The translations under genes and the position numbers were made by a program. Shown piece after piece: positions 17,427 to 59,879 of a DNA stretch of 64,000 nt. Every line of letters starts with the position of its first letter. Position 1 is the stretch's first letter. Origin of the DNA: an uncultured Bdellovibrio sp. (GTDB lineage Bacteria > Bdellovibrionota > Bdellovibrionia > Bdellovibrionales > Bdellovibrionaceae); assembly GCA_964590635.1 (NCBI GenBank), contig CAZPYX010000001.1:550-64549 (forward strand), in the 5' to 3' direction. The notes under the pieces are model-generated. The model was not told the DNA's origin. It saw only the letters and a list, made by a program, of their open reading frames with translations, and ran no database searches.

Positions 17427-17580
17427 CTTTAAAGAGGTTTTTATTATCACTCGCAGTCCAAAGGATTTCTTAAATACTCGGTCTGTCGAAAAGTTAAACA
17501 GAGATTGAAGAGGGCGGTGGGTGGAATTGACGCAAACTTCAACCAAAAGTAAGTCCGTACCTTTTGCGTTTTACTAGCAA

Positions 17581-17609: not shown

Positions 17610-17867
17610 ATGAAGATCAAATTTGTTGTTGATGGAGTGGAAACTGAAGTTGAGGCGGAGTCAGGAAGAAGTCTTCTTGATATTGCTTTGATTGCGCGAC
17701 TTCAGCCGCCATACTCTTGTCTCGAGGGAAATTGTGGAACCTGTGAGGCCGTGATCGAGAGCGGGAAGACCACTGAAGACAAAATTGGCAGTGTCACAGT
17801 TCGCACTTGTCAGGCAGTACCTAGGTCTGACTCTCTGACAGTAAATTACGATAAGGTCGAGACATAA
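17610..17867 (+). CDS. 2Fe-2S ferredoxin
   Basis: PYSCLEGNCGTC..RTCQA plant-type cysteine pattern. Confidence 0.9.
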   Translation: MKIKFVVDGVETEVEAESGRSLLDIALIARLQPPYSCLEGNCGTCEAVIESGKTTEDKIGSVTVRTCQAVPRSDSLTVNYDKVET

Positions 17868-30137: not shown

Positions 30138-31466
30138 TTACTGAGCTCTTGTTCCGCTCACCCTTCCAGACATTGCTGACATAGGTACCGCGATATATTG
30201 GACACCTTGTGAACTTGTTGCTGGAACTGAAGTGCTAGGGACTAGGTTCGGCACAACAACTTGAGCGCCGTTTGTACTAACACCTACACCACGACCTGGA
30301 GCCAAGCGAGGAGCTAACAAAGTTCCATCTGGCTGTTGAATCAAAACCGTACCTGGGTTTGTGATTGTGCCAGGGATGCTTGGATTCGCTGGGTTCATTG
30401 GTCCACTTGTGATCAACTGACCATTCACGAAGTTGTAGTTTTGCGGAGAGCTTACAAGTTGGTTGAAGATTTGATCCGCATTATTTGTGTAAGCCCAAAC
30501 TACCGGGTTCAAGTCACCGTAAGAGATGGATTGTTCTCTTAAAGAGTTGTTAGCCCATGATGTTTGGATGTTTGCGAAATTGTTTTTCGCTGCATACACG
30601 CTGTTTTGACCGTTTTGGTACATATTCATCCAGTAGCTAGATGCATTCAAATCTTTGGCATTGATCGCTGTCTGATAGTTTGTGTAGAAAGTCTTAACCG
30701 TGTTACCTGCGTAACCGATTGAAGCCGCCAAAGTCATTCCCATTCTTTGACGAAGCTCCTTCCAACCTTTTTCAGTGATCAAGTTGTCTTGAAGTGAAGT
30801 CAATTGATCAAGACCAGACTGATTTACCGTTTGGTCATCGCTGGCAATGGCTTTTGCAAGTGTTTGTTGTACGTATTTACCATAGAAGCTTGCGACTTCT
30901 TTTTGATCTACTTTTTCATCGCTTAGAACTGCAGAGATTTCATTAATACGGCAGTCCAATGTATCTGCATCGTCTTTAGCCGTGCCACATTTTTTCAGAA
31001 CTTTCTCTGTGAAAGTAAGTTTTGCTTTTACTTTTTTAACTTGAGCTTCCGGTGCTTCAACTTCCTCTTTTTCTTTTGCCGGTGCTGGAGGAGCTTTAAC
31101 AACCTTGTCGCCTTCTTCGATTTTCGCCATTAAGGCTACGTTCAAAGAGTCGATGTCTTTTGTGTTTTTATCAAATGCTACATTGAGTGTGTATTGTTTG
31201 AATCCGCATTCTTCACAGTAGCCTTTGCCTTCTGTAAGTTTTGGAACCAAAGCCAGGACTTCTTTATCACCTGTCTTAATGTACTTCACATTCGCAACAC
31301 CTTTAGATGTTGTGATTTTTCCTGGGATAACGTCATCTGCTTCGGATGCCATATCCATAGATGCAATGCCACCAGTGTGTTGATTGAAAGAAACATTAAA
31401 ACCAAGTACCAGCAATAGTGCTGATGCCATCGCCCATTTTTTTTGGGTATCAGTGAAAGTTTTCAT
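30138..31466 (-). CDS. Exported or membrane-anchored hypothetical protein, 442 aa
   Basis: N-terminal hydrophobic helix, CEEC motif, Pro/Gly-rich C-terminal tail; AGGAGG RBS. Confidence 0.85.
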   Translation of the reverse strand: MKTFTDTQKKWAMASALLLVLGFNVSFNQHTGGIASMDMASEADDVIPGKITTSKGVANVKYIKTGDKEVLALVPKLTEGKGYCEECGFKQYTLNVAFDKNTKDIDSLNVALMAKIEEGDKVVKAPPAPAKEKEEVEAPEAQVKKVKAKLTFTEKVLKKCGTAKDDADTLDCRINEISAVLSDEKVDQKEVASFYGKYVQQTLAKAIASDDQTVNQSGLDQLTSLQDNLITEKGWKELRQRMGMTLAASIGYAGNTVKTFYTNYQTAINAKDLNASSYWMNMYQNGQNSVYAAKNNFANIQTSWANNSLREQSISYGDLNPVVWAYTNNADQIFNQLVSSPQNYNFVNGQLITSGPMNPANPSIPGTITNPGTVLIQQPDGTLLAPRLAPGRGVGVSTNGAQVVVPNLVPSTSVPATSSQGVQYIAVPMSAMSGRVSGTRAQ

Positions 31467-31780: not shown

Positions 31781-32962
31781 ATGAAGTTTCATTTCCCGAA
31801 GAGTCTCAAACCAGAACATATCGCTGAATCCGATTGGAACAATTGGACTTGGCAGCTTCGTCATTCCTTGAAGACGCAAAGTGATTTTGAAAAACATTTT
31901 GAGTTGAGTGCCGATGAGCGTGCCGCCTTCACTGAAGGTAAAGAGCTTTTCAATATTCGCACGACTCCTTATTATGCCAGTTTGTCTGGTGGCCCGGGTG
32001 AATCGATTCGTCAGATCTTGATGCCGCAACGTTTTGAGATTGAAGAAGGTTCACAACAAATGTTGGATCCTTTAGGGGAGCGCAAGAACAATCCGGCTCC
32101 GCGAGTGATTCATCGCTATTCAGATCGCGTTCTTTTTTTAATTACTGACATTTGCAGTGTGTATTGCCGTTTCTGCACCCGCAAACATTTTACCGGCCAA
32201 GAACAAGCGTTCATTCGCAACGAGGAGTACGAGCAAGCACTGGCTTATATCAAAAGCCACACAGGAATTCGCGAAGTCATTCTATCGGGCGGAGATCCGC
32301 TTACGGTCGGGGATGCCCAGTTAGAACGGGTATTGAGTGATCTGCGCAATATTGAACATATCGAAATTATTCGTATCGGTTCTCGCATGCCGGTTGTCTG
32401 TCCGATGCGTGTCACTGAAGATCTGGTGAAGATTTTAAAAAAGCACAAACCTGTTTTCTTGATGTCTCACTTCAACCATCCGAATGAATTAACCGCAGAA
32501 GCCGCAGCGGCATTGGAGTTGTTGGTTGATAACGGCGTTCCGGTGATGAATCAAATGGTTCTTCTGAACGGCATCAACAATCACGCTGCTTTGGTGCAAG
32601 CGCTGAATCGTCGTTTGTTGTATCTCCGTGTGAAGCCTTACTACATGTTCCAGTGCGATCCTTCCATCGGCACAGATCATCTGCGCACATCGGTCGAAGA
32701 TTCTTTGGAAATTCAAAAAGAGTTGTGGGGGCACTTGTCAGGATTGGCGATGCCAAACTTATCTTTGGACATCCCAAACGGCGGAGGCAAAACCTACCTC
32801 GTTCCAAATTTCCAAACCTCCCAAGAGGGCCTCACTCGCAACTTCACAGGCTGGGATGGCGTCGACGCCCAATACGTCAGCCCCTCACCAGACAAAATAA
32901 AAAAACCACTCCTAGGCCCTTATCAAACTGAGTGGTCTCACTTAAAAAACGGAAAATCCTAA
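31781..32962 (+). CDS. kamA: KamA-family radical SAM enzyme (lysine 2,3-aminomutase-like)
   Basis: HRYSDRVL, CSVYCRFCTRK, LSGGDPL, HFNHP, PYYMFQCD, PNGGGK (PLP lysine). Confidence 0.9.
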   Translation: MKFHFPKSLKPEHIAESDWNNWTWQLRHSLKTQSDFEKHFELSADERAAFTEGKELFNIRTTPYYASLSGGPGESIRQILMPQRFEIEEGSQQMLDPLGERKNNPAPRVIHRYSDRVLFLITDICSVYCRFCTRKHFTGQEQAFIRNEEYEQALAYIKSHTGIREVILSGGDPLTVGDAQLERVLSDLRNIEHIEIIRIGSRMPVVCPMRVTEDLVKILKKHKPVFLMSHFNHPNELTAEAAAALELLVDNGVPVMNQMVLLNGINNHAALVQALNRRLLYLRVKPYYMFQCDPSIGTDHLRTSVEDSLEIQKELWGHLSGLAMPNLSLDIPNGGGKTYLVPNFQTSQEGLTRNFTGWDGVDAQYVSPSPDKIKKPLLGPYQTEWSHLKNGKS

Positions 32963-32965
32963 AAC

Positions 32966-33058
32966 GTACCTGCTTCCTATTGGTTAAAAAAGGGAGCAGG
33001 TCGAACAAAGAATCTTAACGGTCTATGTACTTTTTTAAACCGTTAGGAAGCAGGTACC
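32966..33058. repeat. REP/MITE-like element with about 28-bp terminal inverted repeats
   Basis: GTACCTGCTTCCTATTGGTTAAAAAAG ... CTTTTTTAAACCGTTAGGAAGCAGGTAC between convergent stops. Confidence 0.85.
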
Positions 33059-33525
33059 TATCGGCCGGGTTTGTATTCGATGGTTAGGTGGGCGTAGTCG
33101 TTTTCGACTCCTTGAGAAAATGAAAGCATGTCTGCTGTGGTGAGGCTGTTGAATTGAAGCCATGTTGTTGTTGAAGAGAATGCTTTTGTCGTTGGTTGAT
33201 CGCGGTCCGTGACCCAGTACAAAACTTCGTAGGCTGTTTTATTAGCGACCTTAGATTGATATTGGCGAATGAGGAAGTGAACTCGGAACATTCTTAGCAT
33301 GTTCGTGCCTTTTCCACACCAAACATCCCAGTCCCATGCTCCAGGCTTATCAAAGACATGGGCACATTTTAAATCAATGGTTCCATCGTTCGACATGTAG
33401 TGAAAAGTCACATCGTCTTCCTTAAGTTCCTTGGTGCCGATTTCAGAGAAACCTTTTGGTGCCGCAAAAACAGAAGAGGAAAGGGTAATTACAGAGGCAA
33501 TAAGAAGTGCTTTGATTGTTTTCAT
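33058..33525 (-). CDS. Secreted hypothetical protein
   Basis: Signal peptide ending VFA, two Cys, 155 aa. Confidence 0.8.
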   Translation of the reverse strand: MKTIKALLIASVITLSSSVFAAPKGFSEIGTKELKEDDVTFHYMSNDGTIDLKCAHVFDKPGAWDWDVWCGKGTNMLRMFRVHFLIRQYQSKVANKTAYEVLYWVTDRDQPTTKAFSSTTTWLQFNSLTTADMLSFSQGVENDYAHLTIEYKPGR

Positions 33526-33617: not shown

Positions 33618-33618
33618 C

Positions 33619-33720
33619 GAAAGGTACCTGCTTCCTATTGAGTTAAAAAGGGAGCAAGTACATCAATATATTTTAGCAGAGCAAGTACCTTTTTAATCCA
33701 ATAGGAAGCAGGTACCTTTC
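33619..33720. repeat. REP/MITE-like element, 102 bp, 33-bp terminal inverted repeats
   Basis: GAAAGGTACCTGCTTCCTATTGAGTTAAAAAGG ... CCTTTTTAATCCAATAGGAAGCAGGTACCTTTC (two mismatches); same family as the 32966 copy. Confidence 0.9.
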
Positions 33721-33731
33721 GTCTCTTTCGG

Positions 33732-34349
33732 TTACCAGATAACTGAGAAGTTCAAGATTGCTACTTCGATACCCATGTCGATGTCACCTTTTTTAACAAA
33801 GCGAAGTTCCGGAGCGTAGCTAACGTTGTTCCAAAGAGCGAAACGTTTACCGCCGCCGAAGAAAAGACCAAATTTAGTTTCATAGTCAGTTTCTCTGTCA
33901 TTCAATACAGAGTACAAGCCAATACCAGCTTTTAAGAAGAAGGCATTTTTAAGATCAGATTGGAAATTGTAAGCACCCACACCCGCGATGTCGAAAAGTG
34001 TTTTGCTGTCTCCGGTAGGTGAAACCTCTTTAGAAAGCATTTGAATACGACCTTCTCCACCGACTTGGAAACCTTCTTTGAGGTAGTGAAGATAAGAAGC
34101 ACCAATGTCGATCACTGTTCCAGTTGATGCATTTTTAGAACGTTTTTCAGAAATGAACACACCACGAGTCAAAAGAGTTGTGAACTCGTTCTCATTGCTT
34201 CCACCAGCAAGGAAAGACTCTGTAGAAGAATAACTTCTTTCCACAGGAGCAGCTTTAGCTACGTAAGTATTAGACGATTTAGTTTTTGCACCGGCAACTG
34301 ACGTGAACGCCATTGCTACAGCAGCTAGGGATACGATCAACTTGTTCAT
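33732..34349 (-). CDS. Small outer-membrane beta-barrel protein
   Basis: Signal peptide, about eight amphipathic strands, C-terminal Trp. Confidence 0.8.
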   Translation of the reverse strand: MNKLIVSLAAVAMAFTSVAGAKTKSSNTYVAKAAPVERSYSSTESFLAGGSNENEFTTLLTRGVFISEKRSKNASTGTVIDIGASYLHYLKEGFQVGGEGRIQMLSKEVSPTGDSKTLFDIAGVGAYNFQSDLKNAFFLKAGIGLYSVLNDRETDYETKFGLFFGGGKRFALWNNVSYAPELRFVKKGDIDMGIEVAILNFSVIW

Positions 34350-46452: not shown

Positions 46453-47295
46453 ATGAAACACATCTTAATTACTGGCGCATCGACGGGCATTGGGCATGAA
46501 CTGACCGCAAAATTTCTTGAGCGAGGATATTTTGTTTGGGCGGGAGTAAGAAAGCCTGAAACTTTGGCAAGCTTGAAACAAAAATTTTCAGATCGCTTGG
46601 AAGTTTTAAAACTGGATGTGACAGTAAACTCTGACATTGAAAGCGCACACCAAAAGATCGCTCAAGCTGGAGTGACTGATTTTGCGTTGGTTAACAATGC
46701 CGGAATCGCTTTAGGTGGTCCGATTGAAGCCATCGAAATAGAAGAGTGGAAAAAACTCTTCGAAGTGAATGTTTTTGGATTGCTGCGGGTGACTCAGATC
46801 TTCTTGCCGTTATTGCGAAAAACCAAGGGACGGGTTGTGAATATAGGCTCCATCAGTGGCCGCATGTCGAGTCCTTTTCTAGCTCCCTACACCAGTTCTA
46901 AACATGCCGTCCGTGCAATAACGGACTCCTTAAGACGGGAGCTACGCAGTTTAGGAGTGAAGGTCGTTCTTATCGAACCCGGTCCAATCAAAACTGAAAT
47001 CTGGGATAAATCCATCGAGAGTAGCCGCAAACTAGAAACCAAAATCTCGCCAGAGCTACAATCCGTTTACGGAGAAGCCCTAGACAATCTAGTATTGGCA
47101 GTAGAAGAGGTCGCCAGAAATGCCGTTCCAACTTCCCACGTAACTGAAAAAGTAATCAAGGCCATCGAACTAGAAAACCCATACCCCTACTACCTAGTAG
47201 GAAAAGGCATCCACCTACAAGCACTCGTCCTCAGAGTAATACCAGTACGTTGGCTAGACGCCATCTTCGCCCGAGGATTCCGCTTCCAAAAATAG
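46453..47295 (+). CDS. SDR-family oxidoreductase
   Basis: TGASTGIG, NNAG, YTSSK; start moved to ATG 46453. Confidence 0.93.
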   Translation: MKHILITGASTGIGHELTAKFLERGYFVWAGVRKPETLASLKQKFSDRLEVLKLDVTVNSDIESAHQKIAQAGVTDFALVNNAGIALGGPIEAIEIEEWKKLFEVNVFGLLRVTQIFLPLLRKTKGRVVNIGSISGRMSSPFLAPYTSSKHAVRAITDSLRRELRSLGVKVVLIEPGPIKTEIWDKSIESSRKLETKISPELQSVYGEALDNLVLAVEEVARNAVPTSHVTEKVIKAIELENPYPYYLVGKGIHLQALVLRVIPVRWLDAIFARGFRFQK

Positions 47296-47367
47296 GTACG
47301 GACACACTTATGGTGTCGCAACCGCGTCAAATAACGCGTCAGCGACACCATAAGTGTGTCCGTACCT
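47294..47367. repeat. REP-like element with a perfect 26-bp inverted repeat
   Basis: AGGTACGGACACACTTATGGTGTCGC (47294-47319) and its exact reverse complement (47342-47367), with a 22-nt spacer. Confidence 0.9.
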
Positions 47368-47373
47368 TTCGGG

Positions 47374-47670
47374 TTAGTGAGTGAACTTGCTTTTGATTTC
47401 GTCGTATTTGTGTTCGACTTTGTCGCTGAGTTTTGCCATCCAGCTTTTTGCTGTTTCATCGTCGATGTGTAGGCTGCTCATGAGGGAATGGACTTTTTTG
47501 CTGGCTTCTTCTTTTGAGAGGCCGGTTCTTTCGCAGACGAGATTGATCAGGTCGTCGGGACTTGCCATTGCTTTTTTTAATTCGTCTTCGGAGAGATTTA
47601 AATTGGAGAATTGGCTCTTCAACGCGTTGGAAATTTCACCGAATTTTCCCTGAAACATTTGAGTGTCCAT
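47374..47670 (-). CDS. CsbD-like small stress protein
   Basis: FQGKFGEISNALKSQFSNLNLSEDEL resembles the CsbD pattern; AAGGAGGA RBS before ATG 47670. Confidence 0.6.
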   Translation of the reverse strand: MDTQMFQGKFGEISNALKSQFSNLNLSEDELKKAMASPDDLINLVCERTGLSKEEASKKVHSLMSSLHIDDETAKSWMAKLSDKVEHKYDEIKSKFTH

Positions 47671-47945
47671 GGTATCCTCCTTCTCGACTTTCATCGAGGT
47701 TTCGTTGAATTAGGGCTCCTCTTTAAGGGCACTCCTCTTGCAGTGTTTCGTCAATGGAAGTAGCCGCTTTGTTTCAAAGATCATGGCCCTTACTAATTTC
47801 ATTTTGTTGTCTTTAGCGGATTTCTGACGCCAAAACTTTGACTAGCGTCAGAGAATTTTTGCATGGAAACATTTTCCTCACAGGCAAAAATTGCCTCTAA
47901 TCAAATATGTTAGAAGGCAATGAGCAGAGCTAGACCAGAGTCCTG

Positions 47946-48031: not shown

Positions 48032-48060
48032 GCAGACTGACCAGCTCATGGAGGATGATA

Positions 48061-48594
48061 GTGGCTGAAGAAAAAGCAGCAGTGGAAGCAGCACCGGCAG
48101 CAAGCGGTGGATCTGGACAAAAGCCTATACTTCTTATTGCATTGGCAGTGATCAATATGCTCATCGTCGCGGGCGTAGGTTTCATGCTTTATAAAGGTAA
48201 GCAAAAAGAAGCAGCCGAACCTAAAATTGAACAAGTTATTAAAGGTGAGGCGGAAGCCCAACATAAAGAAGCCACTGAAGAAAAAGAAGTGGTTGGAAAA
48301 GTTGTACCACTTGAGACGTTTATCGTAAATCTTGCAGGCGCTAAAGGCCGTAAGGTTGCGAAAGTAAACATGGAACTCGAACTCAAAGGGGACCATGCCG
48401 CGGAAGAGATCGATAAGCGCAAAGCGCAGATCCGCGATATCATCATCATTATTCTTTCGAGCAAAACTTATGACGAAGTTTCTTCTCGTGAAGGTAAAGA
48501 CAATCTAAGAAATGAAATTAAAGACACTATCAATTCATTCCTGGTTCAAGGAAAGATTTCGAACGTGTTCTTCACAGAGTTTATCTATAACTAA
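48061..48594 (+). CDS. fliL: Flagellar basal body protein FliL
   Basis: TM helix, PLETFIVNL, QIRDIII..K, VFFTEF; GTG 48061 follows GGAGGA (the track starts at 48055). Confidence 0.92.
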   Translation: MAEEKAAVEAAPAASGGSGQKPILLIALAVINMLIVAGVGFMLYKGKQKEAAEPKIEQVIKGEAEAQHKEATEEKEVVGKVVPLETFIVNLAGAKGRKVAKVNMELELKGDHAAEEIDKRKAQIRDIIIIILSSKTYDEVSSREGKDNLRNEIKDTINSFLVQGKISNVFFTEFIYN

Positions 48595-48603
48595 GGCAGG
48601 ACT

Positions 48604-49614
48604 ATGAATCAGGTTCTTTCGCAAAGTGAAGTGGATGCTCTGTTAGCCGCCGTCTCTGATGGGGATGTGGCGTCTTCAGAAGCTCCTAAATCTGAAGGTC
48701 AGTCATCTAGCGGCGTTGCCAAAGTCGATGATCGTAAGATCGTATCTTATGATCTGACCAGCCAAGATCGTATTATTCGTGGTCGTCTTCCTCAATTGGA
48801 AGTTATCTACGAGAAATTCATGCGTGCTTTCCGCGTCTCTTTGTCATCGGCACTTCGTAAGATTGCGTCGATCACTTTGACCGGCACGGAATTTTTGAAA
48901 TTTGGTGAGTTCATCAATACGTTGCCAATGCCAACATGCATGAGCGTTTTACGCTTTGGTAATTTACGTGGTTCAGCTCTTTTTGTAATTGAAAGTAAAT
49001 TGGCTTATGCCTTAGTCGACAGCTTCTTCGGTGGAGCAGACCGTCCTTATACAAAAATTGACGGTAAAGATTTTACTCCGATTGAATTGCAGATCGTGCA
49101 AAAAGTCGTGGGTCTTGCGATCAACGATATGGAAGCGGCTTGGGCTTCCATCGAAAAAATCGGTTGTTCATTTGTTCGTACGGAAGTGAATCCACAGTTC
49201 GTAGGTATCGTGCCTCCAACAGATGTGGTTATTGCTTCAACATTCGACGTTGAATTGGAAAATGCATCAGGAACGATCTCAATCGTGATTCCTTATGCGA
49301 CGATTGAACCTATCAAACAAAAGCTCTCTACAGGTTTCCAGGTAGAGTCAGATCAAACAGACAAAAGACTTTGGACTTCAATCATTCAAGAACAACTTCT
49401 TGAGACTGACATGGGCATCAAAGTGAATCTCGGCGAAACGGAAATCAAATTGCGTGATTTGATGACCTTGAAAGTTGGGGACGTTATTCCACTCGATCAA
49501 GATGCATCAGGTGAGTTCGACGTTGAAGTTGAAGGCGTTAAAAAGTTCAAAGGTTATTACGGAATACATCACGGTACTGTGGCAGTCCAAGTGACTCGTC
49601 CAGTGACAAAGTAG
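48604..49614 (+). CDS. fliM: Flagellar motor switch protein FliM
   Basis: VLSQSEVDALL CheY-binding motif, YDL, EVNPQF, SpoA C-terminal domain. Confidence 0.96.
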   Translation: MNQVLSQSEVDALLAAVSDGDVASSEAPKSEGQSSSGVAKVDDRKIVSYDLTSQDRIIRGRLPQLEVIYEKFMRAFRVSLSSALRKIASITLTGTEFLKFGEFINTLPMPTCMSVLRFGNLRGSALFVIESKLAYALVDSFFGGADRPYTKIDGKDFTPIELQIVQKVVGLAINDMEAAWASIEKIGCSFVRTEVNPQFVGIVPPTDVVIASTFDVELENASGTISIVIPYATIEPIKQKLSTGFQVESDQTDKRLWTSIIQEQLLETDMGIKVNLGETEIKLRDLMTLKVGDVIPLDQDASGEFDVEVEGVKKFKGYYGIHHGTVAVQVTRPVTK

Positions 49615-49623
49615 GGGGATCAG

Positions 49624-49995
49624 ATGACAGAAGATAAACTAGATGATTTGGCAGATCAGTTATTGGCAGAGGCGTCGGGCATGACAGCAAGCCCAGCAGC
49701 TGGCAAGAAATCTGATGAGTTGAGCGGCCAAAAAGATAGAAATTTGAATTTAATTCTCGATATTCCCCTCAAGGTGACGGTGGAGTTGGGCCGTACAAAA
49801 ATGCCAGTCAGTGAATTACTCAATTTGACCCAAGGAAGTGTCATAGAGTTGAGCAAGCTTGCGGGTGAGCCCATGGAAGTTTACGTGAATGATAAATTGA
49901 TCGCCCGCGGTGAGGCCGTGGTTATCAATGAAAAATTCGGTGTGCGTTTAACTGACGTTATCTCACCGGCTGAACGCGTAGAACAACTTAGATAA
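49624..49995 (+). CDS. fliN: Flagellar motor switch protein FliN
   Basis: ILDIPLKVTVELGRT, GEAVVINEKFGVR. Confidence 0.96.
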   Translation: MTEDKLDDLADQLLAEASGMTASPAAGKKSDELSGQKDRNLNLILDIPLKVTVELGRTKMPVSELLNLTQGSVIELSKLAGEPMEVYVNDKLIARGEAVVINEKFGVRLTDVISPAERVEQLR

Positions 49996-50024
49996 TAAAA
50001 GCCAATTTAGATAAGAGGACAAAG

Positions 50025-50747
50025 ATGCGCTGGTTGTTGCCTTTACTTTTAGTTGTTTTCGCCTCCGCTGAAGCTATGGCGAACAAGTCTGTTGGTACTC
50101 AAGTGACGGAGATGCCCCCATCTTCTGGCGCTATCGTTGAAGCGGGGGACTCGTCCGCCGTAGCTTCAGCGAAGGAGGAAGCAACACCTATCGCTGCGGA
50201 AAAACCAAAAGTAGACACTCGCAAAGAGTCAGAGATTCCATTGAATCTTGATGGAAATAAAAAAGCTTCTGCAGAAGGCGGCGGATTCCGCATCCTTTTG
50301 ACTCTTTCTTTGTTGGGAGTTGTAGGCACAGGCGCATTTATCTTCTTGAAAAAATACTCAGTTCCTAAAGATAGAAAACACCAAACGCAGATAAAAGTTT
50401 TGCAACAGCATTATTTGGGTCCTAAAAAAAGCTTGGCCATTGTGCGCGTAGCTGGTGAATCCATTCTTATCGGTGTGACGGACTATAATATTTCAATGAT
50501 CAAATCATTGTCTTTGTTGGACGATGAAGTTCCAGAAGAAGCTCCGAAAAGCTTCGGTAATGTTCTAGGTGGCTTCGGCAAAAATAACGATGCTTCATTT
50601 GACGAAAATGAAGAAGCTGCTGATGAGACTCCACGCAAAAATAACAAGCGTGCTGCAAAAGATTTAGATAGCGATGAAGAGTTCGCAATTAGCGGCATCA
50701 AAGATATCGTTTCGAAACGTCTTAAAGGAATGAGGTCTTTCCAGTGA
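50025..50747 (+). CDS. fliO: Flagellar protein FliO
   Basis: TM followed by IKVLQQHYLGPKKSLAIVRV..ILIGVT; lies between fliN and fliP. Confidence 0.85.
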   Translation: MRWLLPLLLVVFASAEAMANKSVGTQVTEMPPSSGAIVEAGDSSAVASAKEEATPIAAEKPKVDTRKESEIPLNLDGNKKASAEGGGFRILLTLSLLGVVGTGAFIFLKKYSVPKDRKHQTQIKVLQQHYLGPKKSLAIVRVAGESILIGVTDYNISMIKSLSLLDDEVPEEAPKSFGNVLGGFGKNNDASFDENEEAADETPRKNNKRAAKDLDSDEEFAISGIKDIVSKRLKGMRSFQ

Positions 50748-51529
50748 GAAAGCTCTTGTCTGGCTTCCAATTTCGTCGAAGTCACTTTGCACTTTTAAGT
50801 CTATTGTTATTACCGCTTGTTTTATTGGTAAGCTCTAGCGCGTTTGCGCAGGTGACATTGCCAACGGTGAACTTGGGCTTTAAGACGACTGATAATCCAA
50901 ATGAAGTGGTGAATGCAGTTAAACTGATCTTGATTATGACGGTGCTAACTTTGGCTCCGGCGATCTTGATCATGATGACAGGATTCACTCGTATCATCAT
51001 CGTTTTGTCTTTCTTAAGACAAGCGATGGGTGTTCAACAAATGCCACCGAATCAATTGTTGGTGGGTTTGTCATTGTTTCTGACTTTCTTCATCATGCAG
51101 CCAGCTTTCAATGAGATGAATATAAATGGCATTCAACCTTATATCGCGGGAAAGATTTCCCAAGATGTTGCGGTGGAAAAAACTTTGGCTCCTCTAAGAA
51201 AGTTCATGTTCACACAAACTCGTGATGCAGACCTGGCTTTGTTTGTGAAGCTTTCAAAAATTGATAAACCGAAAACCCGTGCAGAAGTTCCGACGATGGT
51301 TTTAGTTCCAGCCTTTGTTGTGTCAGAGCTGAAAACAGCATTCCAAATTGGCTTTATCATCTTCCTACCATTCCTCGTGATCGACATTGTCGCAGCGAGT
51401 GTGTTGATGGCCATGGGTATGATGATGCTTCCTCCGGTTGTGATTTCGTTGCCCTTTAAGATCATGCTTTTTGTCCTGGTAGACGGATGGGGTTTGCTCA
51501 TCGGTTCCATGGTCAAGAGTTTCGGGTGA
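50744..51529 (+). CDS. fliP: Flagellar export protein FliP
   Basis: MTGFTRIIIV, PPNQLL, PAFVVSELKTAF, LPFKIMLFVLVDGW. Confidence 0.97.
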   Translation: MRKLLSGFQFRRSHFALLSLLLLPLVLLVSSSAFAQVTLPTVNLGFKTTDNPNEVVNAVKLILIMTVLTLAPAILIMMTGFTRIIIVLSFLRQAMGVQQMPPNQLLVGLSLFLTFFIMQPAFNEMNINGIQPYIAGKISQDVAVEKTLAPLRKFMFTQTRDADLALFVKLSKIDKPKTRAEVPTMVLVPAFVVSELKTAFQIGFIIFLPFLVIDIVAASVLMAMGMMMLPPVVISLPFKIMLFVLVDGWGLLIGSMVKSFG

Positions 51530-51537
51530 GGTGAAAG

Positions 51538-51810
51538 ATGACAGAAGAATTAGTAATTAAATTAGGTCAAGACGCCCTTAGAACAACGGCTATGTTGTCG
51601 GCTCCATTGTTGATTTCAACCTTGGTAGTTGGTTTGGCTGTGAGTATTTTCCAAGCCCTGACTCAGATCAATGAAGCGACTTTAACTTTCATTCCGAAAA
51701 TGATTGTGGTGGCTTTAGTCTTTGTCCTGGCGGGGCCGTGGATGATGGATGTGATGAGCACTTACACTGTGAATTTATTTGATAATATTGCGGTGATGGT
51801 AAGGGAATAG
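51538..51810 (+). CDS. fliQ: Flagellar export protein FliQ
   Basis: FQALTQINEATLTFIPK. Confidence 0.97.
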   Translation: MTEELVIKLGQDALRTTAMLSAPLLISTLVVGLAVSIFQALTQINEATLTFIPKMIVVALVFVLAGPWMMDVMSTYTVNLFDNIAVMVRE

Positions 51811-52590
51811 ATGATCAATTACACGGCATTGACTGAAGCACAGATTTTGCTTTTTGCGCTGATCCTTCTGCGCATGTTGGCATTTATTGTGACTTCAGCT
51901 TTTTTTGGCGCAGCTGCGATCAATGCCCCTGTAAAAATTCTCCTGGCCGTTGTTTTGAGCATGTTGATCTTCCCAGTGGTAAGAATTGGGAATGTGAACT
52001 ATCTGGCAATTTCGAATGATATTATAGGTTTAGCAATCCGCGAACTTATTGTGGGATTGGTCCTGGGTTTCTTAACCCGCCTGTTCTTCTTCGTTGTCAC
52101 AATGGTAGGGGATTTAGTGTCCATGAGTGTCGGCTTGAGTGCATCTCAGATGTACAATCCTATGATGGGAACAAGCGGAAACGTTTTGGATACGTTCAAT
52201 TCTAAAGTAGGCAAGATGATCTTTTTGTCGGACAATGGTTAACACTAGGATAAACATGCATTTGTAAAAAGTTATGAGTTGGTGCCGGTAAGTTCTTTGC
52301 AGTTAAATATTGGACCCTTTGGCGAGATCGCGCTGTTTGGGCAAATGGCATTATTGCTGACTATCAAGATGTGTGCACCAGTGATTGTGACGATCTTGTT
52401 GGTGAATCTAGCATTCGGTATCTTGGGAAGAGCAGTTCCTCAGATCAACGTCCTGGTAACAAGTATGCCGGTGACGATCATGCTAGGAATGACAGTGGTT
52501 TTTATTTGTCTCCCACTTTTAACAATGGAGATGACGGGATTAATTGAAATTACATCAAGCAAATTGTTCGATGTGATGAAACACTTATAG
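51811..52590 (+). pseudogene. fliR: fliR interrupted by two in-frame stops, or a local sequence error
   Basis: Track ORFs 51811-52242 and 52279-52590 share one frame; TAA at 52240 and TAG at 52246; read-through length 259 aa; GRAVPQINV motif. Confidence 0.85.
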
Positions 52591-52600
52591 GGTAAGGATG

Positions 52601-52627
52601 ACTTACCTACTTCGGCGGAGCCGGAGT
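52601..52627 (+). promoter_or_regulatory. Conserved leader hairpin with GGA loop, copy 2
   Basis: ACTTACCT-ACTTCGG-CGGAG-CCGGAGT; the stem change keeps pairing as G-U. Confidence 0.65.
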
Positions 52628-52661
52628 ATAACCAGGCAACAGGTTCTAGGAAGGAACTGAA

Positions 52662-53723
52662 GTGTCAGAAGATAACGGCGAAAAGACCGAAGAAGCAACG
52701 GATGCGAGACGGGAAGAGTTCCGTAAGCAAGGTAACGTTGCTCATTCAAAGGAGCTTGCGTCAGCGGTATTACTACTCGCTGCGGCCGGTAGCGTTTATT
52801 TTCTGGGTCGTTTTTTCTTTAAAAATTTCTACGAACTTTTCCAATATTCATTCGGTCCGAACATGGTCGAAATGGTCCGTAAAGGCAATTTCACAGAGGC
52901 TTTCATGATGAACGGTAAAACCGCTTTCATCTTGATCATGCCAGTGGTTGGTATTGCCGGTATCCTAGGTGTTGCGTGCTCCGTTGCACAAACGGGTTTC
53001 ATGCAAGTTGAAGACGCATTGACGCCAAAATTTGAAAAAGTAAATCCAATGGAAGGCTTCAAGCGCGTGTTTAGCATGCGTTCGATTGTTGAGGCCGTGA
53101 AGTCTTTGCTGAAGATGGGCGCGATCGGTCTGATCTTATATTATCTTTTGCGCGGTGAAGTTCATCAGATTCCTTACATGATGAGTTTCTCTGTCGAACA
53201 AATCATTTCTTATCTTGGTGCCGTGGTCGCAAAGCTTTTAGGTGGTGTCGGCGCGGTGATGTTTATCCTCGCTGCTGCGGATTACTTCTATCAGCGTTGG
53301 GATCTTGAAAAGAAAATGATGATGACGAAGCAAGAAATTAAAGAAGAACACAAACAGCGCGAGGGTGATCCTATGATCAAATCGCGCATTCGTCGTATTC
53401 AAAGGGAAATGGCCAGCAAGCGTATGATGGCCGAAGTTCCTAAGGCTGACGTGATCATCACCAATCCGACTCATATCGCTGTTTGCTTGAAGTACTCTGA
53501 TAATTTGCCAGCTCCTCAGGTCATTGCCATGGGGGCAGATTCAGTAGCTGAAAATATCAAGCAACTCGCTAGAGAGCACAATATTCCCATCGTGGAAAAT
53601 AAGCCTCTGGCTCGTACTATTTTTAAAACAATGAAGGTTGGCCAAGTAATACCACGTGAGCTTTTTGTCGCTGTGGCAGAAGTTCTTTCGTATGTTTATC
53701 GTTTGCGTAGGAAGAAAAGATAA
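52662..53723 (+). CDS. flhB: Flagellar export protein FlhB
   Basis: EKTEEAT, EGDP, ITNPTH autocleavage motif, AVAEVL. Confidence 0.97.
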   Translation: MSEDNGEKTEEATDARREEFRKQGNVAHSKELASAVLLLAAAGSVYFLGRFFFKNFYELFQYSFGPNMVEMVRKGNFTEAFMMNGKTAFILIMPVVGIAGILGVACSVAQTGFMQVEDALTPKFEKVNPMEGFKRVFSMRSIVEAVKSLLKMGAIGLILYYLLRGEVHQIPYMMSFSVEQIISYLGAVVAKLLGGVGAVMFILAAADYFYQRWDLEKKMMMTKQEIKEEHKQREGDPMIKSRIRRIQREMASKRMMAEVPKADVIITNPTHIAVCLKYSDNLPAPQVIAMGADSVAENIKQLAREHNIPIVENKPLARTIFKTMKVGQVIPRELFVAVAEVLSYVYRLRRKKR

Positions 53724-55822
53724 TGGAAGACGTTTTTCAGTTTTTAAAGAGATTCGAAAAGTATACTAAGAATACCGATCTTCTTATTGCTTTCGGTGTC
53801 TTAGCGATCTTGGCGGTGATGATTATCCCATTGCCTCCGATGCTTTTGGACATCTCTCTGACTTTCTCTCTTGCCATCAGTATCCTTATTCTTTTGGTGA
53901 GTTTATATACGCAAAAAGCGTTGGATTTCACTTCCTTCCCGTCACTTCTTTTGATGACGACCTTGTTCCGTCTGTCCCTGAACGTGGCAACGACACGTTT
54001 GATCTTGACCCATGGACATGAAGGGGAAGCTGCTGCCGGACACGTTATCGCGTCATTCGCGAACTTCGTTGTCGGTGGAAACTATGTCATCGGTTTCGTG
54101 ATGTTTGTTATCTTGATCGTGATCAACTTCATGGTAATCACGAAGGGTTCTGGGCGCGTAGCCGAAGTCGCTGCACGTTTCACTTTGGATGCGATGCCTG
54201 GTAAACAGATGTCCATCGATGCGGAACTGAATTCAGGACATATCACTGAAGCAGAAGCGCGTAAGCGTCGTAGAGCGATTGAGCAAGAAGCCGATTTCTA
54301 TGGAGCTATGGACGGTGCCTCTAAGTTCGTACGCGGAGACGCTATCGCAGGTATCATTATCACGATGATCAATATCATTGGTGGTTTGGGTATCGGGGTT
54401 ATTCAAAAAGGTCTTGATATTGGCAACGCCGCAAAAATCTACACCATGCTTACCATCGGTGACGGATTGCTTGCGCAGATTCCAGCTTTGATCATCTCAA
54501 CTGCTGCCGGTATCATTGTTACTCGTACTTCAAATTCAGATAAAGACATGGGTAGTGAGGTGACAGGACAACTCTTGTTGAATCCTCGCGCCGTGATGAT
54601 CTCTGGTGGTGTTTTGATTTTGATGGGTTTGGTTCCAGGACTTCCAACAGTTCCGTTCTTGATGATGGGCGGATTGATGTGTGGATTGTCTTGGGTGATC
54701 ACGAAATACAAAGCCGAAACAGCCGCTGCGGAAAAGAAACAAGTTCAAGATGCAGCCAATGTGCCGAAGAAAGAAAATATCGAAACGATGCTTCCTGTCG
54801 ACATGCTCGAGCTGGAAGTGGGCTATGGACTTATCAATATCGTTGAGTCAGATCAAAGTGGTGACTTGCTTGAACGTATCGTCAGTATCCGTAAGCAGTT
54901 CGCTTTGGATCTGGGGATCGTGGTTCCAAGTATTCATATCCGTGACAACTTGCAGTTGGCTCCAGGCGAATACCGCATGTTGATTAAAGGCAATAAAGTG
55001 GGCGGCGGCCTACTTCGCCCAGATTCGTTGCTTGCGATGGATCCAGGTAACGTTTCCGATCGTATTGATGGCATTCCTACAAAAGAACCAGCGTTCGGTT
55101 TGGATGCGATGTGGGTCTCACCTTCTCGTAAAGAAGATGCAGAGTTCGCGGGATACACTGTGGTGGATCTTCCAACGGTTATGGCCACACATATCACCGA
55201 GCTTATTCGTGGTCATGCCCATGAATTGTTGGGTCGTCAGGAAGCTTCAAGTCTTATTGAAAACTTTAAGAAGACTCATCCAAAAGTGGTGGACGAGCTT
55301 ATTCCAGATCTTCTTCCCTTGGGATCTGTTGTCCGTGTTATGCAAAGCTTGCTTAAAGAACAAGTTTCGATTCGTAACTTGTTAACGATCTTCGAATCGT
55401 TGGCAGACGATGCTCCACGTACAAAGGATATCGAAGTATTGACAGAAGGTGTGCGCAAGGCTTTGGCCCGCGGAATCACTGCGAAGTACACAACAGACCA
55501 GGGCAATATTCCGGTGATGACTTTGCATCCTGTGATCGAAGAATTGATTGCGAACTCTTTGCTGCAAACAGAGCAAGGTGTGCAGTTGGTGATGGACCCG
55601 AATACGGCGCATCGTTTGATCAATGAGATCGCGCGCGCGGTCGAGGGGCATCCCGAAATTGCCAGTCAGCCGATTTTGCTGACCAGCCCGACGTCACGTC
55701 GTCATTTGTATAAATTAACTTCAAGATTTATTCCGCAGCTCGTAGTCCTTTCTCATAATGAACTGACAGCGGATGCGGACGTCCAATCAGTTGCTCTTGT
55801 GGAGATGAACCATGCAGGTTAA
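53723..55822 (+). CDS. flhA: Flagellar export protein FlhA
   Basis: RVAEVAARFTLDAMPGKQMSID, FYGAMDGASKFVRGD. Confidence 0.97.
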   Translation: MEDVFQFLKRFEKYTKNTDLLIAFGVLAILAVMIIPLPPMLLDISLTFSLAISILILLVSLYTQKALDFTSFPSLLLMTTLFRLSLNVATTRLILTHGHEGEAAAGHVIASFANFVVGGNYVIGFVMFVILIVINFMVITKGSGRVAEVAARFTLDAMPGKQMSIDAELNSGHITEAEARKRRRAIEQEADFYGAMDGASKFVRGDAIAGIIITMINIIGGLGIGVIQKGLDIGNAAKIYTMLTIGDGLLAQIPALIISTAAGIIVTRTSNSDKDMGSEVTGQLLLNPRAVMISGGVLILMGLVPGLPTVPFLMMGGLMCGLSWVITKYKAETAAAEKKQVQDAANVPKKENIETMLPVDMLELEVGYGLINIVESDQSGDLLERIVSIRKQFALDLGIVVPSIHIRDNLQLAPGEYRMLIKGNKVGGGLLRPDSLLAMDPGNVSDRIDGIPTKEPAFGLDAMWVSPSRKEDAEFAGYTVVDLPTVMATHITELIRGHAHELLGRQEASSLIENFKKTHPKVVDELIPDLLPLGSVVRVMQSLLKEQVSIRNLLTIFESLADDAPRTKDIEVLTEGVRKALARGITAKYTTDQGNIPVMTLHPVIEELIANSLLQTEQGVQLVMDPNTAHRLINEIARAVEGHPEIASQPILLTSPTSRRHLYKLTSRFIPQLVVLSHNELTADADVQSVALVEMNHAG

Positions 55823-58087: not shown

Positions 58088-58168
58088 GTGAGTTGAAAAT
58101 AGATTTCCTGAGAATTGGACTTTCAGCACGAACACCTGTTTGTTAACATGGTTTTAAGAGGGAAAAAT

Positions 58169-58954: not shown

Positions 58955-58988
58955 ATTTGATTTAAGCCTAAATTTCAAAAGTGTAATC

Positions 58989-59020
58989 ATGGGAATCTGG
59001 ATTAGATTCCCATTTTTATT
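58989..59020 (+). terminator. Intrinsic terminator after fliA
   Basis: ATGGGAATCT-ggatt-AGATTCCCAT followed by TTTTATT. Confidence 0.8.
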
Positions 59021-59035
59021 TATATAAATTGCCAT

Positions 59036-59794: not shown

Positions 59795-59879
59795 TTTCAC
59801 TGACTGACAATTAGGGACACTGTTTAAGTAGTAAATAAGCGAAGGCGAGCTAGGGCATTTTAGTTCGTTTTGAAGTTGA

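What the first reader, a model, noticed from the sequence alone, without database searches (positions are those of the whole stretch)
47161..47520. Second, stronger case of the skew around the perfect 26-bp inverted repeat
Seen: 42 of the last 44 SDR codons end in A or C (exceptions CGT and TGG), versus 13 of its first 30. In the opposing CsbD-like gene 41 of the last 48 do, and three of the exceptions are Met or Trp. The arm sequence differs from the kamA-site element but shares AGGTAC...GTACCT ends, so the effect tracks the terminus rather than the internal sequence. An alternative is selection for C-rich Rho loading sites, but that does not explain A over T.
Basis: partly seen in the sequence, partly recalled or inferred. 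Interest (0 to 1): 0.7.

Follow-up and report, generated by a model that had tools for sequence, protein, structure and literature searches.

The report
REP repeats skew neighbouring genes' codons
The 26-bp inverted repeat is a pair of REP repeats (a REPIN, the kind moved by a RAYT transposase) in a Bdellovibrio genome. Genes whose stop codon touches such a repeat have had the silent third codon positions of their last 60-100 codons rewritten to A or C, an effect I found in none of the papers I searched and whose cause is still open.

Summary
**Observation: confirmed.**
- 42 of the last 44 SDR codons and 41 of the last 48 codons of the opposing 99-aa gene end in A or C. The window average is 0.47 (binomial P = 4e-12 and 3e-8).
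- Only the four genes touching the two inverted repeats reach such values in the 64 kb.

**What the repeat is.** It is a REPIN: two inverted REP units with a conserved 5' head, (A/T)AGGTAC. A RAYT (IS200-like Y1 transposase) gene flanked by the sister REP family was found in a related assembly and in four other Bdellovibrio genomes (at least three species).

**How general the skew is.**
- Across 16 REP-abutted genes versus 96 controls, A/C-ending codons fall from 0.82 at the stop to 0.57 a hundred codons upstream. Controls stay at 0.49 (P = 5e-9).
- Single REPs show it too, so no hairpin is needed. It lies only on the 5' side of each REP.
- Syntenic orthologues without REPs, including a 95%-identical one, have no skew. 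Nor does an orthologue carrying other palindromes at the same junction.
- It recurs in B. svalbardensis, strain HCB-162 and B. bacteriovorus, and in non-coding DNA upstream of RAYT genes.

**Cause: unresolved.**
- The substitutions run away from G and T by both transitions and transversions, and protein evolution is not faster. This favours selection for a G/U-poor, C-rich sense transcript, possibly a Rho-loading tract.
- A deamination-type mutation bias fits less well.

The parts
46453..47295 (+). SDR-family oxidoreductase gene. It has lost 3-6 C-terminal codons relative to its orthologues.
   Evidence: Pfam PF00106 and others are precomputed on its database entry, and there are 4,806 homologues. 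The codon alignment with orthologues runs through to ...RFQK.
47023..47292 (+). Skewed 3' tract of the SDR gene. Third codon positions are 70-100% A or C, rising towards the stop.
   Evidence: The tract is absent in orthologues L001, L002 and L005.
47293..47295 (+). TAG stop codon of the SDR gene, built from a T plus the AG of the REP head AGGTAC.
   Evidence: REPs supplying stop codons are known for GTAG-headed REPs (PMC3733652).
47294..47367 (.). REPIN of family B. The left REP is 47294-47327 (+ sense) and the right REP is 47334-47367 (- sense), with the heads facing outwards. It replaces the ancestral two-way terminator hairpin.
   Evidence: Comparison with the empty sites in L001 and L002. 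On the - strand the hairpin is followed by AUUUUU.
47374..47673 (-). Conserved 99-aa protein of unknown function (an ORF start at 47694 is also possible). It is not demonstrably CsbD.
   Evidence: Orthologues in L001, L002 and L005. No Pfam family.
47377..47603 (-). Skewed 3' tract of the 99-aa gene. Sense third positions are 80-100% A or C.
32780..32959 (+). Skewed 3' tract of kamA (gene 31781..32962).
   Evidence: A/C-ending share .80 .90 .70 in the last three 20-codon bins, against .45 .40 .60 in L028, which has no REPIN.
32963..33060 (.). REPIN of family A at the kamA / 155-aa gene junction. Its right head supplies the TAG stop of the 155-aa gene.
   Evidence: It is absent in L028 and L030.
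33061..33240 (-). Skewed 3' tract of the 155-aa gene (33058..33525).
   Evidence: A/C-ending share .70 .75 .90, against .35 .35 .30 in L028.
33618..33721 (.). Third REPIN (family A). It sits between the stop (+16 nt) of gene 33732..34349(-) and that gene's own terminator. It shows almost no skew on either side.
   Evidence: It is absent in L028.
17535..17564 (-). Degenerate single head resembling family B (AAAGGTACGGACTTACTTTTGG), in a divergent intergenic region.

Best explanation
**What is shown.**
- The inverted repeat is a REPIN, two inverted REP units of a RAYT-associated repeat family in a Bdellovibrio genome.
- Each REP is oriented. Its 5' head, (A/T)AGGTAC, abuts and often supplies the stop codon of a gene that reads into it.
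- After a REP arrives at a gene end, the 200-300 nt on the 5' side of the head lose G and T on the REP or sense strand. Only synonymous positions are affected, in a gradient that fades over about 100 codons.

**What is inferred.**
- This is a fixation bias, that is selection acting on ordinary mutations, not a local mutator.
- The selected property is a G/U-poor, C-rich, weakly pairing stretch of the sense transcript that is co-transcribed with the REP.
- Most likely this stretch is a Rho-loading (rut-like) or otherwise inert single-stranded tract. Together with the REP it would form a composite 3'-end module for termination, 3'-end definition and protection.
- The same tract in front of RAYT genes would attenuate the transposase.

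**How likely.** About 0.45 that selection acts on the co-transcribed RNA. About 0.3 for the Rho version specifically.
For: **Identity of the element.**
- The oriented motif follows stop codons directly, in inverted doublets and as single copies.
- A RAYT gene (Pfam Y1_Tnp, E = 2.7e-7) is flanked by inverted REPs in L014.
- The same arrangement and REP family occur in B. svalbardensis, HCB-162 and B. bacteriovorus; strain BCCA has the arrangement with a GGTGCC-headed variant.

**Link between REP and skew.**
- 16 REP-abutted genes versus 96 controls: A/C-ending share .57 .59 .64 .73 .82 towards the stop, against a flat .49 (Mann-Whitney P = 4.6e-9).
- Orthologues without REPs lack the skew. Other palindromes at the same junction do not cause it.

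**The effect is on nucleotides, not on decoding.**
- Only codon position 3 shifts.
- Leucine moves from TTA to CTA, a first-position T to C change (Fisher P = 0.001).
- Non-coding 5' flanks of REPs upstream of RAYT genes are highly A+C-rich (84% in the 50 nt next to the REP in B. bacteriovorus).

**Selection rather than mutation.**
- From L028 to the window, changes in gene bodies are symmetric.
- In the tails, T>C is 26 against C>T 6, G>A is 9 against A>G 1, and G>C is 12 against C>G 1.
- At fourfold-degenerate sites all 13 G were lost, 10 to C and 3 to A.
- Window-specific amino-acid changes in the tails number 5, against 9 in sister lineages. In gene bodies the counts are 17 and 22. So protein evolution is not faster in the tails.

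**Resemblance to a Rho-loading site.**
- The tails have C .27-.33 and G .15-.18, against C .21 and G .23 in controls. They fold slightly less (-31.4 versus -35.4 kcal/mol per 150 nt, P = 0.02).
- In two cases where an intrinsic terminator lies between the gene and the REP (L012, L033 right side), the gene tail is not skewed.
- E. coli REPs can act as partly Rho-dependent terminators and mRNA stabilisers (bioRxiv 10.64898/2026.03.23.713779; PMC6061677).
Against: - No transcript data were available, so Rho dependence is untested.
- The tract lies inside translated sequence, where ribosomes would mask a loading site.
- In E. coli the C>G zone lies downstream of REPs, not upstream (PMC6061677).
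- If C were being maximised, ACC, CCC and TCC should win. Instead ACA, CCA and TCA do.
- The drop in predicted sense-RNA structure is small, and the antisense RNA changes more (-40.9 versus -32.6, P = 5e-4).
- REPIN 3 in the window and the permease-side REPs in L026 and L027 are co-transcribed but show little skew.
- The evidence against a mutational cause rests on small counts (13 fourfold G sites, 5 versus 9 amino-acid changes).
- Synonymous sites are saturated in the SDR comparison.
Confidence: 0.45

Rival explanations
1. A local, strand-specific mutation bias caused by REP/RAYT processing. One version: the HUH nuclease nicks at the REP head and stays bound to the 5' end, the free 3' end is chewed back, and the complementary strand stays single-stranded and is deaminated. 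Another version: the antisense strand is repeatedly resynthesised with errors after stalled transcription or repair.
For: - The polarity fits. The strand running 5'>3' away from each REP head becomes G/T-rich, on one side only, with a distance gradient and independent of replication direction.
- The composition resembles the vertebrate mitochondrial L strand, which is attributed to C>T and A>G deamination of the single-stranded partner (PMC3269015).
- RAYTs act on single-stranded DNA and cut near the REP foot in cis (PMC3479197).
- Non-coding flanks are even more skewed.
- Overall third-position losses and gains match transitions (T -.16 and C +.17; G -.11 and A +.10).
Against: - At fourfold sites G is lost mostly by G>C (10) rather than G>A (3), and T>A (4) is close to T>C (7). 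Deamination predicts transitions only.
- Amino-acid substitution in the tails is not faster (5 window-specific versus 9 sister-specific). A roughly 6-fold rise in GT>AC mutation should give about a 3-fold rise.
- The choice between A and C depends on the codon family.
- Some REPs show no effect.
Confidence: 0.25
2. Selection on the transcript for a reason other than Rho. The REP-proximal mRNA is kept unable to pair so that the REP or REPIN folds correctly. Alternatively, it is kept free of G/U-dependent endonuclease sites (RNase E type), so that REP-protected decay fragments do not form.
For: It rests on the same selection evidence as the best explanation. G and U are both removed, rather than C simply being maximised. 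TT, TG and GT dinucleotides drop to 0.42-0.62 of control frequency.
Against: - Single REPs that form no hairpin (DNA fold -0.3 to -1.4 kcal/mol, no better than shuffles) still show the skew.
- Predicted sense-RNA structure falls only about 11%.
- No RNase data exist for this organism.
Confidence: 0.15
3. Selection at the DNA level to remove off-target RAYT cleavage or REP insertion sites from essential sequence next to a REP. The model is the E. coli enzyme, which cuts a dinucleotide paired to its guide, in cis and at a distance.
For: [quoted passage not shown]
- The gradient, the strand specificity and the presence in non-coding flanks would all follow.
Against: - The predicted target of a GTAC guide, GT, is not depleted beyond base composition (observed/expected .89 versus .88 in controls; z = +0.3 in a synonymous-shuffle test).
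- TA is not depleted relative to controls.
- T at the third position is lost in every context, not only after G.
Confidence: 0.07
4. Translational selection. A- and C-ending codons are read by Watson-Crick pairing with G34 and U34 tRNAs, so the tails are tuned for decoding near a stop codon embedded in a REP.
For: The effect is confined to third positions. The A/C-ending set matches codons decoded without wobble (general knowledge of decoding rules).
Against: - First-position T>C in leucine (TTA to CTA, P = 0.001).
- Non-coding flanks are skewed.
- The tails move towards codons that are rare genome-wide (CTA, GTA) and away from the common T-ending fourfold codons.
Confidence: 0.05
5. Chance, ordinary codon usage, horizontal transfer or an assembly artefact.
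For: None found.
Against: - P = 4e-12 at this site and P = 4.6e-9 across 16 genes.
- The skew recurs in independent assemblies and at least four species.
- The skewed tails encode conserved, alignable protein.
Confidence: 0.01

Closest known systems
REP / BIME / REPIN elements with their RAYT (TnpA-REP, IS200-like Y1 HUH) transposase, as in E. coli, Pseudomonas, Stenotrophomonas and Neisseria
   Same: - Short multicopy extragenic repeats with a conserved 5' head.
- Inverted doublets that fold as hairpins.
- A single RAYT gene flanked by inverted REPs, held at the same chromosomal position across species.
- The REP head supplies the TAG stop of the neighbouring gene (PMC3733652).
- A preference for gene 3' ends and convergent junctions.
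   Different: - The head is GGTAC, not GTAG or CGTC.
- A single family-A unit is not itself a palindrome.
- Heads face outwards towards the genes, whereas E. coli BIMEs are head-to-head.
- None of the papers I searched reports a compositional footprint on flanking coding sequence.
Rho-utilisation (rut) sites and REP-associated Rho-dependent termination in E. coli
   Same: A C-rich, G-poor, weakly structured tract of 70-250 nt next to a stable stem-loop that lacks a good U-run. REPs there act as partly Rho-dependent terminators and as 3' stabilisers.
   Different: - Here the tract is upstream of the REP and written into the synonymous sites of the translated gene end. In E. coli the C>G zone lies downstream of the REP.
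- U is depleted as well as G.
- Rho dependence is untested.
Strand asymmetry of vertebrate mitochondrial DNA, and replication-linked keto skew in bacteria
   Same: Third codon positions of sense strands are driven to A+C of 80% or more, with a positional gradient. The polarity resembles a miniature replication origin, A/C-rich on the left and G/T-rich on the right of the + strand.
   Different: - The scale is 250 nt, not kilobases.
- It is anchored on a repeat head and is independent of replication direction.
- The substitution spectrum is not dominated by transitions.
Kataegis and other break-associated, strand-coordinated mutation clusters
   Same: A strand-coordinated bias that switches strand across a central site.
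   Different: - The polarity is opposite to that expected from 5'>3' resection.
- The state is an old equilibrium confined to synonymous sites, not a cluster of recent mutations.
- Protein evolution shows no rate increase.
Diversity-generating retroelement targets (variable region at a gene's 3' end followed by a hairpin)
   Same: An altered 3' coding end directly upstream of a hairpin or cruciform.
   Different: The changes are synonymous, not adenine-specific and not diversifying. No template repeat or reverse transcriptase was seen.

Membership tests
REP/REPIN-RAYT system | Short (about 20-40 nt) repeat present in many extragenic copies per genome | tested here: met
   Family A has 4 heads in the window and 19 in about 62 kb of JACXTT contigs. 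It is also present in L026, L027, L031 and L032. Family B was seen as only one doublet plus one degenerate head.
REP/REPIN-RAYT system | A RAYT (Y1 HUH transposase, PF01797) gene flanked by inverted copies of the repeat | tested here: met
   For family A: L014 580..1221 (E = 2.7e-7) with heads at 533(+) and 1349(-). The same is seen in L026, L027, L031, L032 and L033. JGI names homologues 'REP element-mobilizing transposase RayT'. For family B, the element in this finding, no cognate RAYT was seen. Membership rests on the shared head and architecture.
REP/REPIN-RAYT system | Inverted doublets (REPINs) able to fold as a hairpin in single-stranded nucleic acid | tested here: met
   Folds of -38.4, -21.2 and -31.6 kcal/mol with z from -5.6 to -12.9.
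REP/REPIN-RAYT system | Conserved 5' tetranucleotide tag (GTAG or CGTC) at the foot of each REP | tested here: inconclusive
   A conserved head exists, but it is GGTAC (GTAC) and in one RAYT locus GGTGC. That is one base away from GTAG. Whether it acts as a guide is untested.
REP/REPIN-RAYT system | Each REP unit is itself an imperfect palindrome | tested here: not met
   Single family-A units fold at -0.3 to -1.4 kcal/mol, no better than shuffles. The family-B unit has only a 5-bp internal stem (GACAC...GTGTC).
REP/REPIN-RAYT system | RAYT is single-copy per family and inherited vertically at a syntenic position | tested here: met
   The order speA | REP-REP-RAYT-REP | ABC permease is shared by L014, L026 and L027. 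The order mutS | REP-RAYT-REP | murC is shared by two B. bacteriovorus strains.
Rho-dependent terminator (rut site plus pause or stem-loop) | At least 70-80 nt of C-rich, G-poor, poorly structured RNA | tested here: inconclusive
   The composition fits (C .27-.33, G .15-.18; about 45% C by eye in the non-coding flank). The drop in predicted structure is small, and the tract is translated.
Rho-dependent terminator (rut site plus pause or stem-loop) | Termination depends on Rho (bicyclomycin-sensitive 3' ends) | not testable with these tools
   Only DNA runs hold this genome.
Intrinsic (two-way) terminator | G+C-rich hairpin followed by a U-run | tested here: inconclusive
   On the - strand the REPIN hairpin is followed by AUUUUU. 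On the + strand it is followed only by UUUCGGG. The simple scan did not call the long stem. The ancestral terminator hairpin seen in L001 and L002 has been replaced.
Diversity-generating retroelement target | Adenine-specific, non-synonymous variability in a 3' variable region, with a template repeat and a reverse transcriptase | tested here: not met
   The changes are synonymous, and A is gained rather than mutated. No direct repeat of the tract was seen in the window.

The most novel reading that the evidence does not exclude
REP heads in Bdellovibrio impose a directional, strand-specific rewriting of about 250 nt of adjacent host sequence. The REP together with a G/U-free tract would then form a previously unrecognised composite module. 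Either the host builds a Rho-loading or single-stranded platform into the silent sites of its own genes wherever a REP lands, or the tract is a footprint of RAYT acting on single strands. Either reading would give the first sequence-level readout of what REPIN-RAYT systems do in the cell.
Probability: 0.35. Interest if true: 0.85.

Novelty: new variant of a known kind. Interest (0 to 1): 0.74.

Why it matters
- REPs are among the most abundant non-coding repeats in bacteria. Their function, and that of the vertically inherited RAYT genes, has been debated for forty years.
- Here the arrival of a REP predicts which synonymous codons the neighbouring gene will use over 60-100 codons, up to 95% A/C-ending. 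This is a strong, local and directional force on silent sites, with presence/absence controls between close relatives.
- That turns the open question into concrete tests: Rho dependence, nick mapping and recoding.
- These tests can be done in a tractable model, because the same REP family and skew occur in B. bacteriovorus.
- It also matters for codon-usage and dN/dS analyses, which assume that silent sites near gene ends evolve like the rest of the gene.

Tried and rejected
**Searches that gave nothing**
- The genome-contig scan for the family-A head returned only a chance hit in a Chloroflexota MAG, so the species is not in that collection. The viral-contig scan found nothing.
- Rfam gave no meaningful family over 30-50 kb.

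**Hypotheses tested and rejected**
- Outward promoters in the REP: the sigma-70 scan found none at the element.
- Avoidance of GT or TA dinucleotides as RAYT targets: no depletion beyond composition or the control level.
- Wobble-decoding selection: rejected by the leucine first-position shift and by the skewed non-coding flanks.
- A pure deamination spectrum: rejected at fourfold sites.
- Replication stalling at hairpins and 5'>3' resection at a break: both predict the opposite polarity (reasoning).
- The A/C-rich stretch inside gene 30138..31466 is a Lys/Ala/Pro/Glu low-complexity segment, unrelated to any REP.

**Tests that were uninformative or blocked**
- Substitution spectrum from the SDR orthologues: synonymous sites are saturated. 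The closer kamA relative L028 had to be used instead.
- E. coli K-12 as a test of generality: in 100 kb only about 5 REP loci were found, and their GTAG heads face inwards. The geometry is not comparable, so the test was dropped.
The window itself is held only in DNA runs from a rock metagenome.
- Flanks antisense to a gene (L016, mutS in L031 and L032, window 17610..17867) gave mixed, underpowered results.
Full report
**1. The observation**

The counts are exact.
- SDR gene 46453..47295(+): 42 of its last 44 codons end in A or C, against 13 of its first 30.
- Opposing gene 47374..47694(-): 41 of its last 48 codons end in A or C.

The inverted repeat has 26 perfect pairs, extended to 34 nt at 91%. 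Its arms are 47294-47327 and 47334-47367, and its ends are AGGTAC...GTACCT. As single-stranded DNA it folds at -38.4 kcal/mol, z = -12.9.

The window-wide share of A/C-ending codons is 0.469, so the binomial probabilities are 4e-12 and 3e-8. Among 16,722 in-frame 44-codon windows in 57 ORFs, only the four genes that touch the two inverted repeats reach 36 or more A/C-ending codons. These are the SDR gene, the 99-aa gene, kamA and a 155-aa gene. Eight other convergent junctions show nothing.

On the + strand the DNA is A/C-rich to the left of each repeat and G/T-rich to the right. The skew begins about 90 codons before the SDR stop and about 75 codons before the other stop.

**2.

The organism is a Bdellovibrio known from a rock-metagenome assembly.

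- Syntenic orthologues in B. svalbardensis (L001) and a MAG (L002) have a spacer of only 21-36 bp holding a small two-way terminator hairpin. They have no element.
- In their gene tails 2-12 of every 15 codons end in A or C (SDR gene 2-7), against 11-15 in the window.
- The window's SDR protein aligns with them to ...RFQK and then stops. Its TAG is made from a T plus the AG of AGGTAC, and 3-6 ancestral codons have been lost.

At the kamA site a much closer relative is available (L028, KamA 95% identical). It has a 4-bp spacer, no repeat and no skew.

| Gene tail (last three 20-codon bins) | L028 (no repeat) | Window |
|---|---|---|
| kamA | .45 .40 .60 | .80 .90 .70 |
| 155-aa gene | .35 .35 .30 | .70 .75 .90 |

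A third relative, L029, carries two unrelated long palindromes (51-nt and 24-nt arms) at the same junction and shows no skew. So the skew is a derived state tied to this repeat family, not to hairpins in general.

**3. What the repeat is**

A scan of metagenome contigs for the kamA-type arm returned nine stretches from one assembly (JACXTT01) with the same G+C content. Reading them shows that the arm is an oriented unit.
- The sequence (A/T)AGGTACCTGCTTCCTATTGGTTcAAAAAAGTAC follows the stop codon of a gene directly and often supplies it.
- At convergent gene pairs two inverted units bracket the intergenic terminator.
- Single units also occur, in the order stop, unit, terminator.

In L014 a gene flanked by inverted units encodes an IS200-like Y1 transposase with the HUH motif (Pfam PF01797, E = 2.7e-7). 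This is the signature arrangement of a RAYT with its REPs.

Homologues are widespread in Bdellovibrio, and JGI names some of them RayT.
- The same REP family flanks the gene at the same chromosomal position (speA | REP REP RAYT REP | permease) in B. svalbardensis and strain HCB-162.
- A paralogue sits between mutS and murC in two B. bacteriovorus strains.

The element in this finding has a different interior. It shares the head (ATAGGTAC and CGAAAGGTAC) and the architecture, so I file it as a second REP family forming a REPIN. Its own RAYT was not seen.

REP heads that supply a TAG stop are already described for GTAG-headed REPs (PMC3733652).

**4. How general the skew is**

I compared 16 genes with a GGTAC[C/G] head within 30 nt of the stop against 96 other ORFs in the window and the JACXTT stretches.

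| 20-codon bin (towards the stop) | 1 | 2 | 3 | 4 | 5 |
|---|---|---|---|---|---|
| REP-abutted genes | .57 | .59 | .64 | .73 | .82 |
| Controls | .46 | .47 | .49 | .49 | .49 |

The Mann-Whitney P value is 4.6e-9.

- Single REPs show the skew (L013 .90/.80, L021, L014:533), so a hairpin is not required.
- Downstream of single REPs there is no consistent skew. The effect therefore belongs to the 5' side of each head.
- It is equal for + and - strand genes, so it does not follow replication direction.
- speA tails are skewed in all three species where the REP abuts speA.
- murC tails are skewed in B. bacteriovorus (.90-.95).
- The non-coding DNA just 5' of the REP that precedes RAYT is highly A+C-rich (84% in the 50 nt next to the REP in B. 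bacteriovorus). This holds in B. bacteriovorus and, with a GGTGCC head, in strain BCCA.

Not every REP has the effect.
- REPIN 3 of the window (33618-33721) shows almost none.
- The permease-side REPs next to RAYT show little.
- In two cases where an intrinsic terminator separates the gene from the REP, the gene tail is normal (L012, L033 right side).

**5. The nature of the change**

Only codon position 3 moves.

| Base at position 3 | A | C | G | T |
|---|---|---|---|---|
| REP-abutted tails | .36 | .40 | .09 | .15 |
| Control tails | .26 | .23 | .21 | .30 |

- Positions 1 and 2 barely shift.
- Leucine moves from TTA/TTG to CTA/CTC, so a silent first-position T is also removed (Fisher P = 0.001).
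- Together with the non-coding flanks, this rules out an explanation based on wobble decoding.
- The tails move towards codons that are rare genome-wide (CTA, GTA) and away from the common T-ending fourfold codons. They are therefore not optimised for translation.

**6. Mutation or selection**

The polarity and composition match what deamination of the complementary strand would give, as in vertebrate mitochondria (PMC3269015). A RAYT nick at the head followed by 3'>5' gap formation would give the right geometry. Two tests argue against this.

First, the substitution spectrum from L028 to the window.
- Synonymous changes in gene bodies are symmetric (C>T 49 / T>C 44; A>G 28 / G>A 21).
- In the tails, T>C is 26 against C>T 6, G>A is 9 against A>G 1, and G>C is 12 against C>G 1.
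- At fourfold sites all 13 G were lost, 10 to C and 3 to A. T went to C 7 times and to A 4 times.
- This is the ordinary mutation spectrum passed through a filter of 'anything but G or T'. It is not a transition signature.

Second, the rate of protein change.
- A roughly 6-fold rise in GT>AC mutation should speed up amino-acid change about 3-fold.
- Window-specific replacements in the four tails number 5, against 9 in sister lineages. In gene bodies the counts are 17 and 22.

Both tests rest on small counts. I therefore favour a fixation bias, that is selection, but I keep a mutational cause at about 0.25.

**7. What might be selected**

- The tails become C-rich and G-poor (C .27-.33, G .15-.18). 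They fold slightly less (-31.4 versus -35.4 kcal/mol per 150 nt, P = 0.02).
- The non-coding tracts (for example CGAAACCCCGCCCCACTTTCACCCAAAAAACCC) look like textbook Rho-loading sites (my own knowledge of the lambda tR1 rut sites).
- E. coli REPs can act as partly Rho-dependent terminators and as 3' stabilisers.
- The shift is better described as T to C plus loss of G than as 'A over T'. Within NNR codons A is the only silent alternative to G.

I therefore propose a composite module, a G/U-poor tract plus the REP, that works on the co-transcribed RNA. In front of RAYT it would attenuate the transposase.

Weak points of this proposal:
- The tract is translated.
- E. coli places the C>G zone downstream of REPs.
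- NCA codons beat NCC codons.
- The antisense RNA changes more than the sense RNA.
- There are no transcript data.

Avoidance of RAYT target dinucleotides was tested and not supported.

**8. Verdict**

- The element is a known kind (REP/REPIN with RAYT) with an unusual GGTAC head.
- The footprint on neighbouring silent sites appears in none of the papers I searched.
- Its mechanism is open, but it is directly testable in B. bacteriovorus.

Noticed in passing
L014 580..1221 (-), with REP heads at 533(+), 1349(-) and 1419(-): The RAYT gene of the family-A REPs lies next to speA. The order speA | REP-terminator-REP | RAYT | REP | ABC permease is conserved in B. svalbardensis (L026) and HCB-162 (L027).
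   Followed up: yes
L031 about 9860-9929, L032 about 5820-5887, L033 about 5880-5975: Non-coding tracts rich in A and C sit directly 5' of the REP that precedes RAYT genes, in divergent intergenic regions (mutS/RAYT and flagellin/RAYT). In B. bacteriovorus (L031, L032) the 50 nt next to the REP are 84% A+C. They may be RAYT leader sequences.
   Followed up: partly
window 33618-33721: A third REPIN with 34-nt arms (94% complementary) is inserted between a gene's stop and its own intrinsic terminator. It causes almost no codon skew, and it is absent from the close relative L028.
   Followed up: partly
L029 4975-5161 and 5254-5422: Two unrelated long palindromic elements (51-nt and 24-nt arms) fill the kamA / hyp158 spacer in another Bdellovibrio. 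No GGTAC head is present and there is no skew. They may be a different miniature mobile element family.
   Followed up: partly
window 17535-17564 (-) and 17610..17867 (+): A degenerate family-B-like head lies in a divergent intergenic region. In the first 30 codons of the adjacent ferredoxin-like gene, which reads antisense to the head, only 30% of codons end in A or C. This is a weak hint of a strand-level effect.
   Followed up: partly
L016 142..777 (-): A secretin-N-like gene flanked by REPINs at both ends has an unusually low share of A/C-ending codons (0.32) over its whole length, except the last 30 codons.
   Followed up: no
window 47184-47203 (-) and 47548-47564 (+): Terminator-like hairpins with T-runs lie on the antisense strands of both skewed tails. 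Four such sites were found in the 900-bp region scanned (46900-47800), against 1.2 expected. G/T-rich antisense strands fold more strongly (-40.9 versus -32.6 kcal/mol).
   Followed up: partly
window 31110-31241 (within gene 30138..31466, - strand): An internal A/C-ending codon peak falls in a Lys/Ala/Pro/Glu low-complexity segment. It is unrelated to REPs.
   Followed up: yes
window 48055-61007: A flagellar export and motor gene cluster (fliL, fliM, fliN-like, fliO and onwards) lies downstream of the finding. It is syntenic with B. svalbardensis.
   Followed up: no
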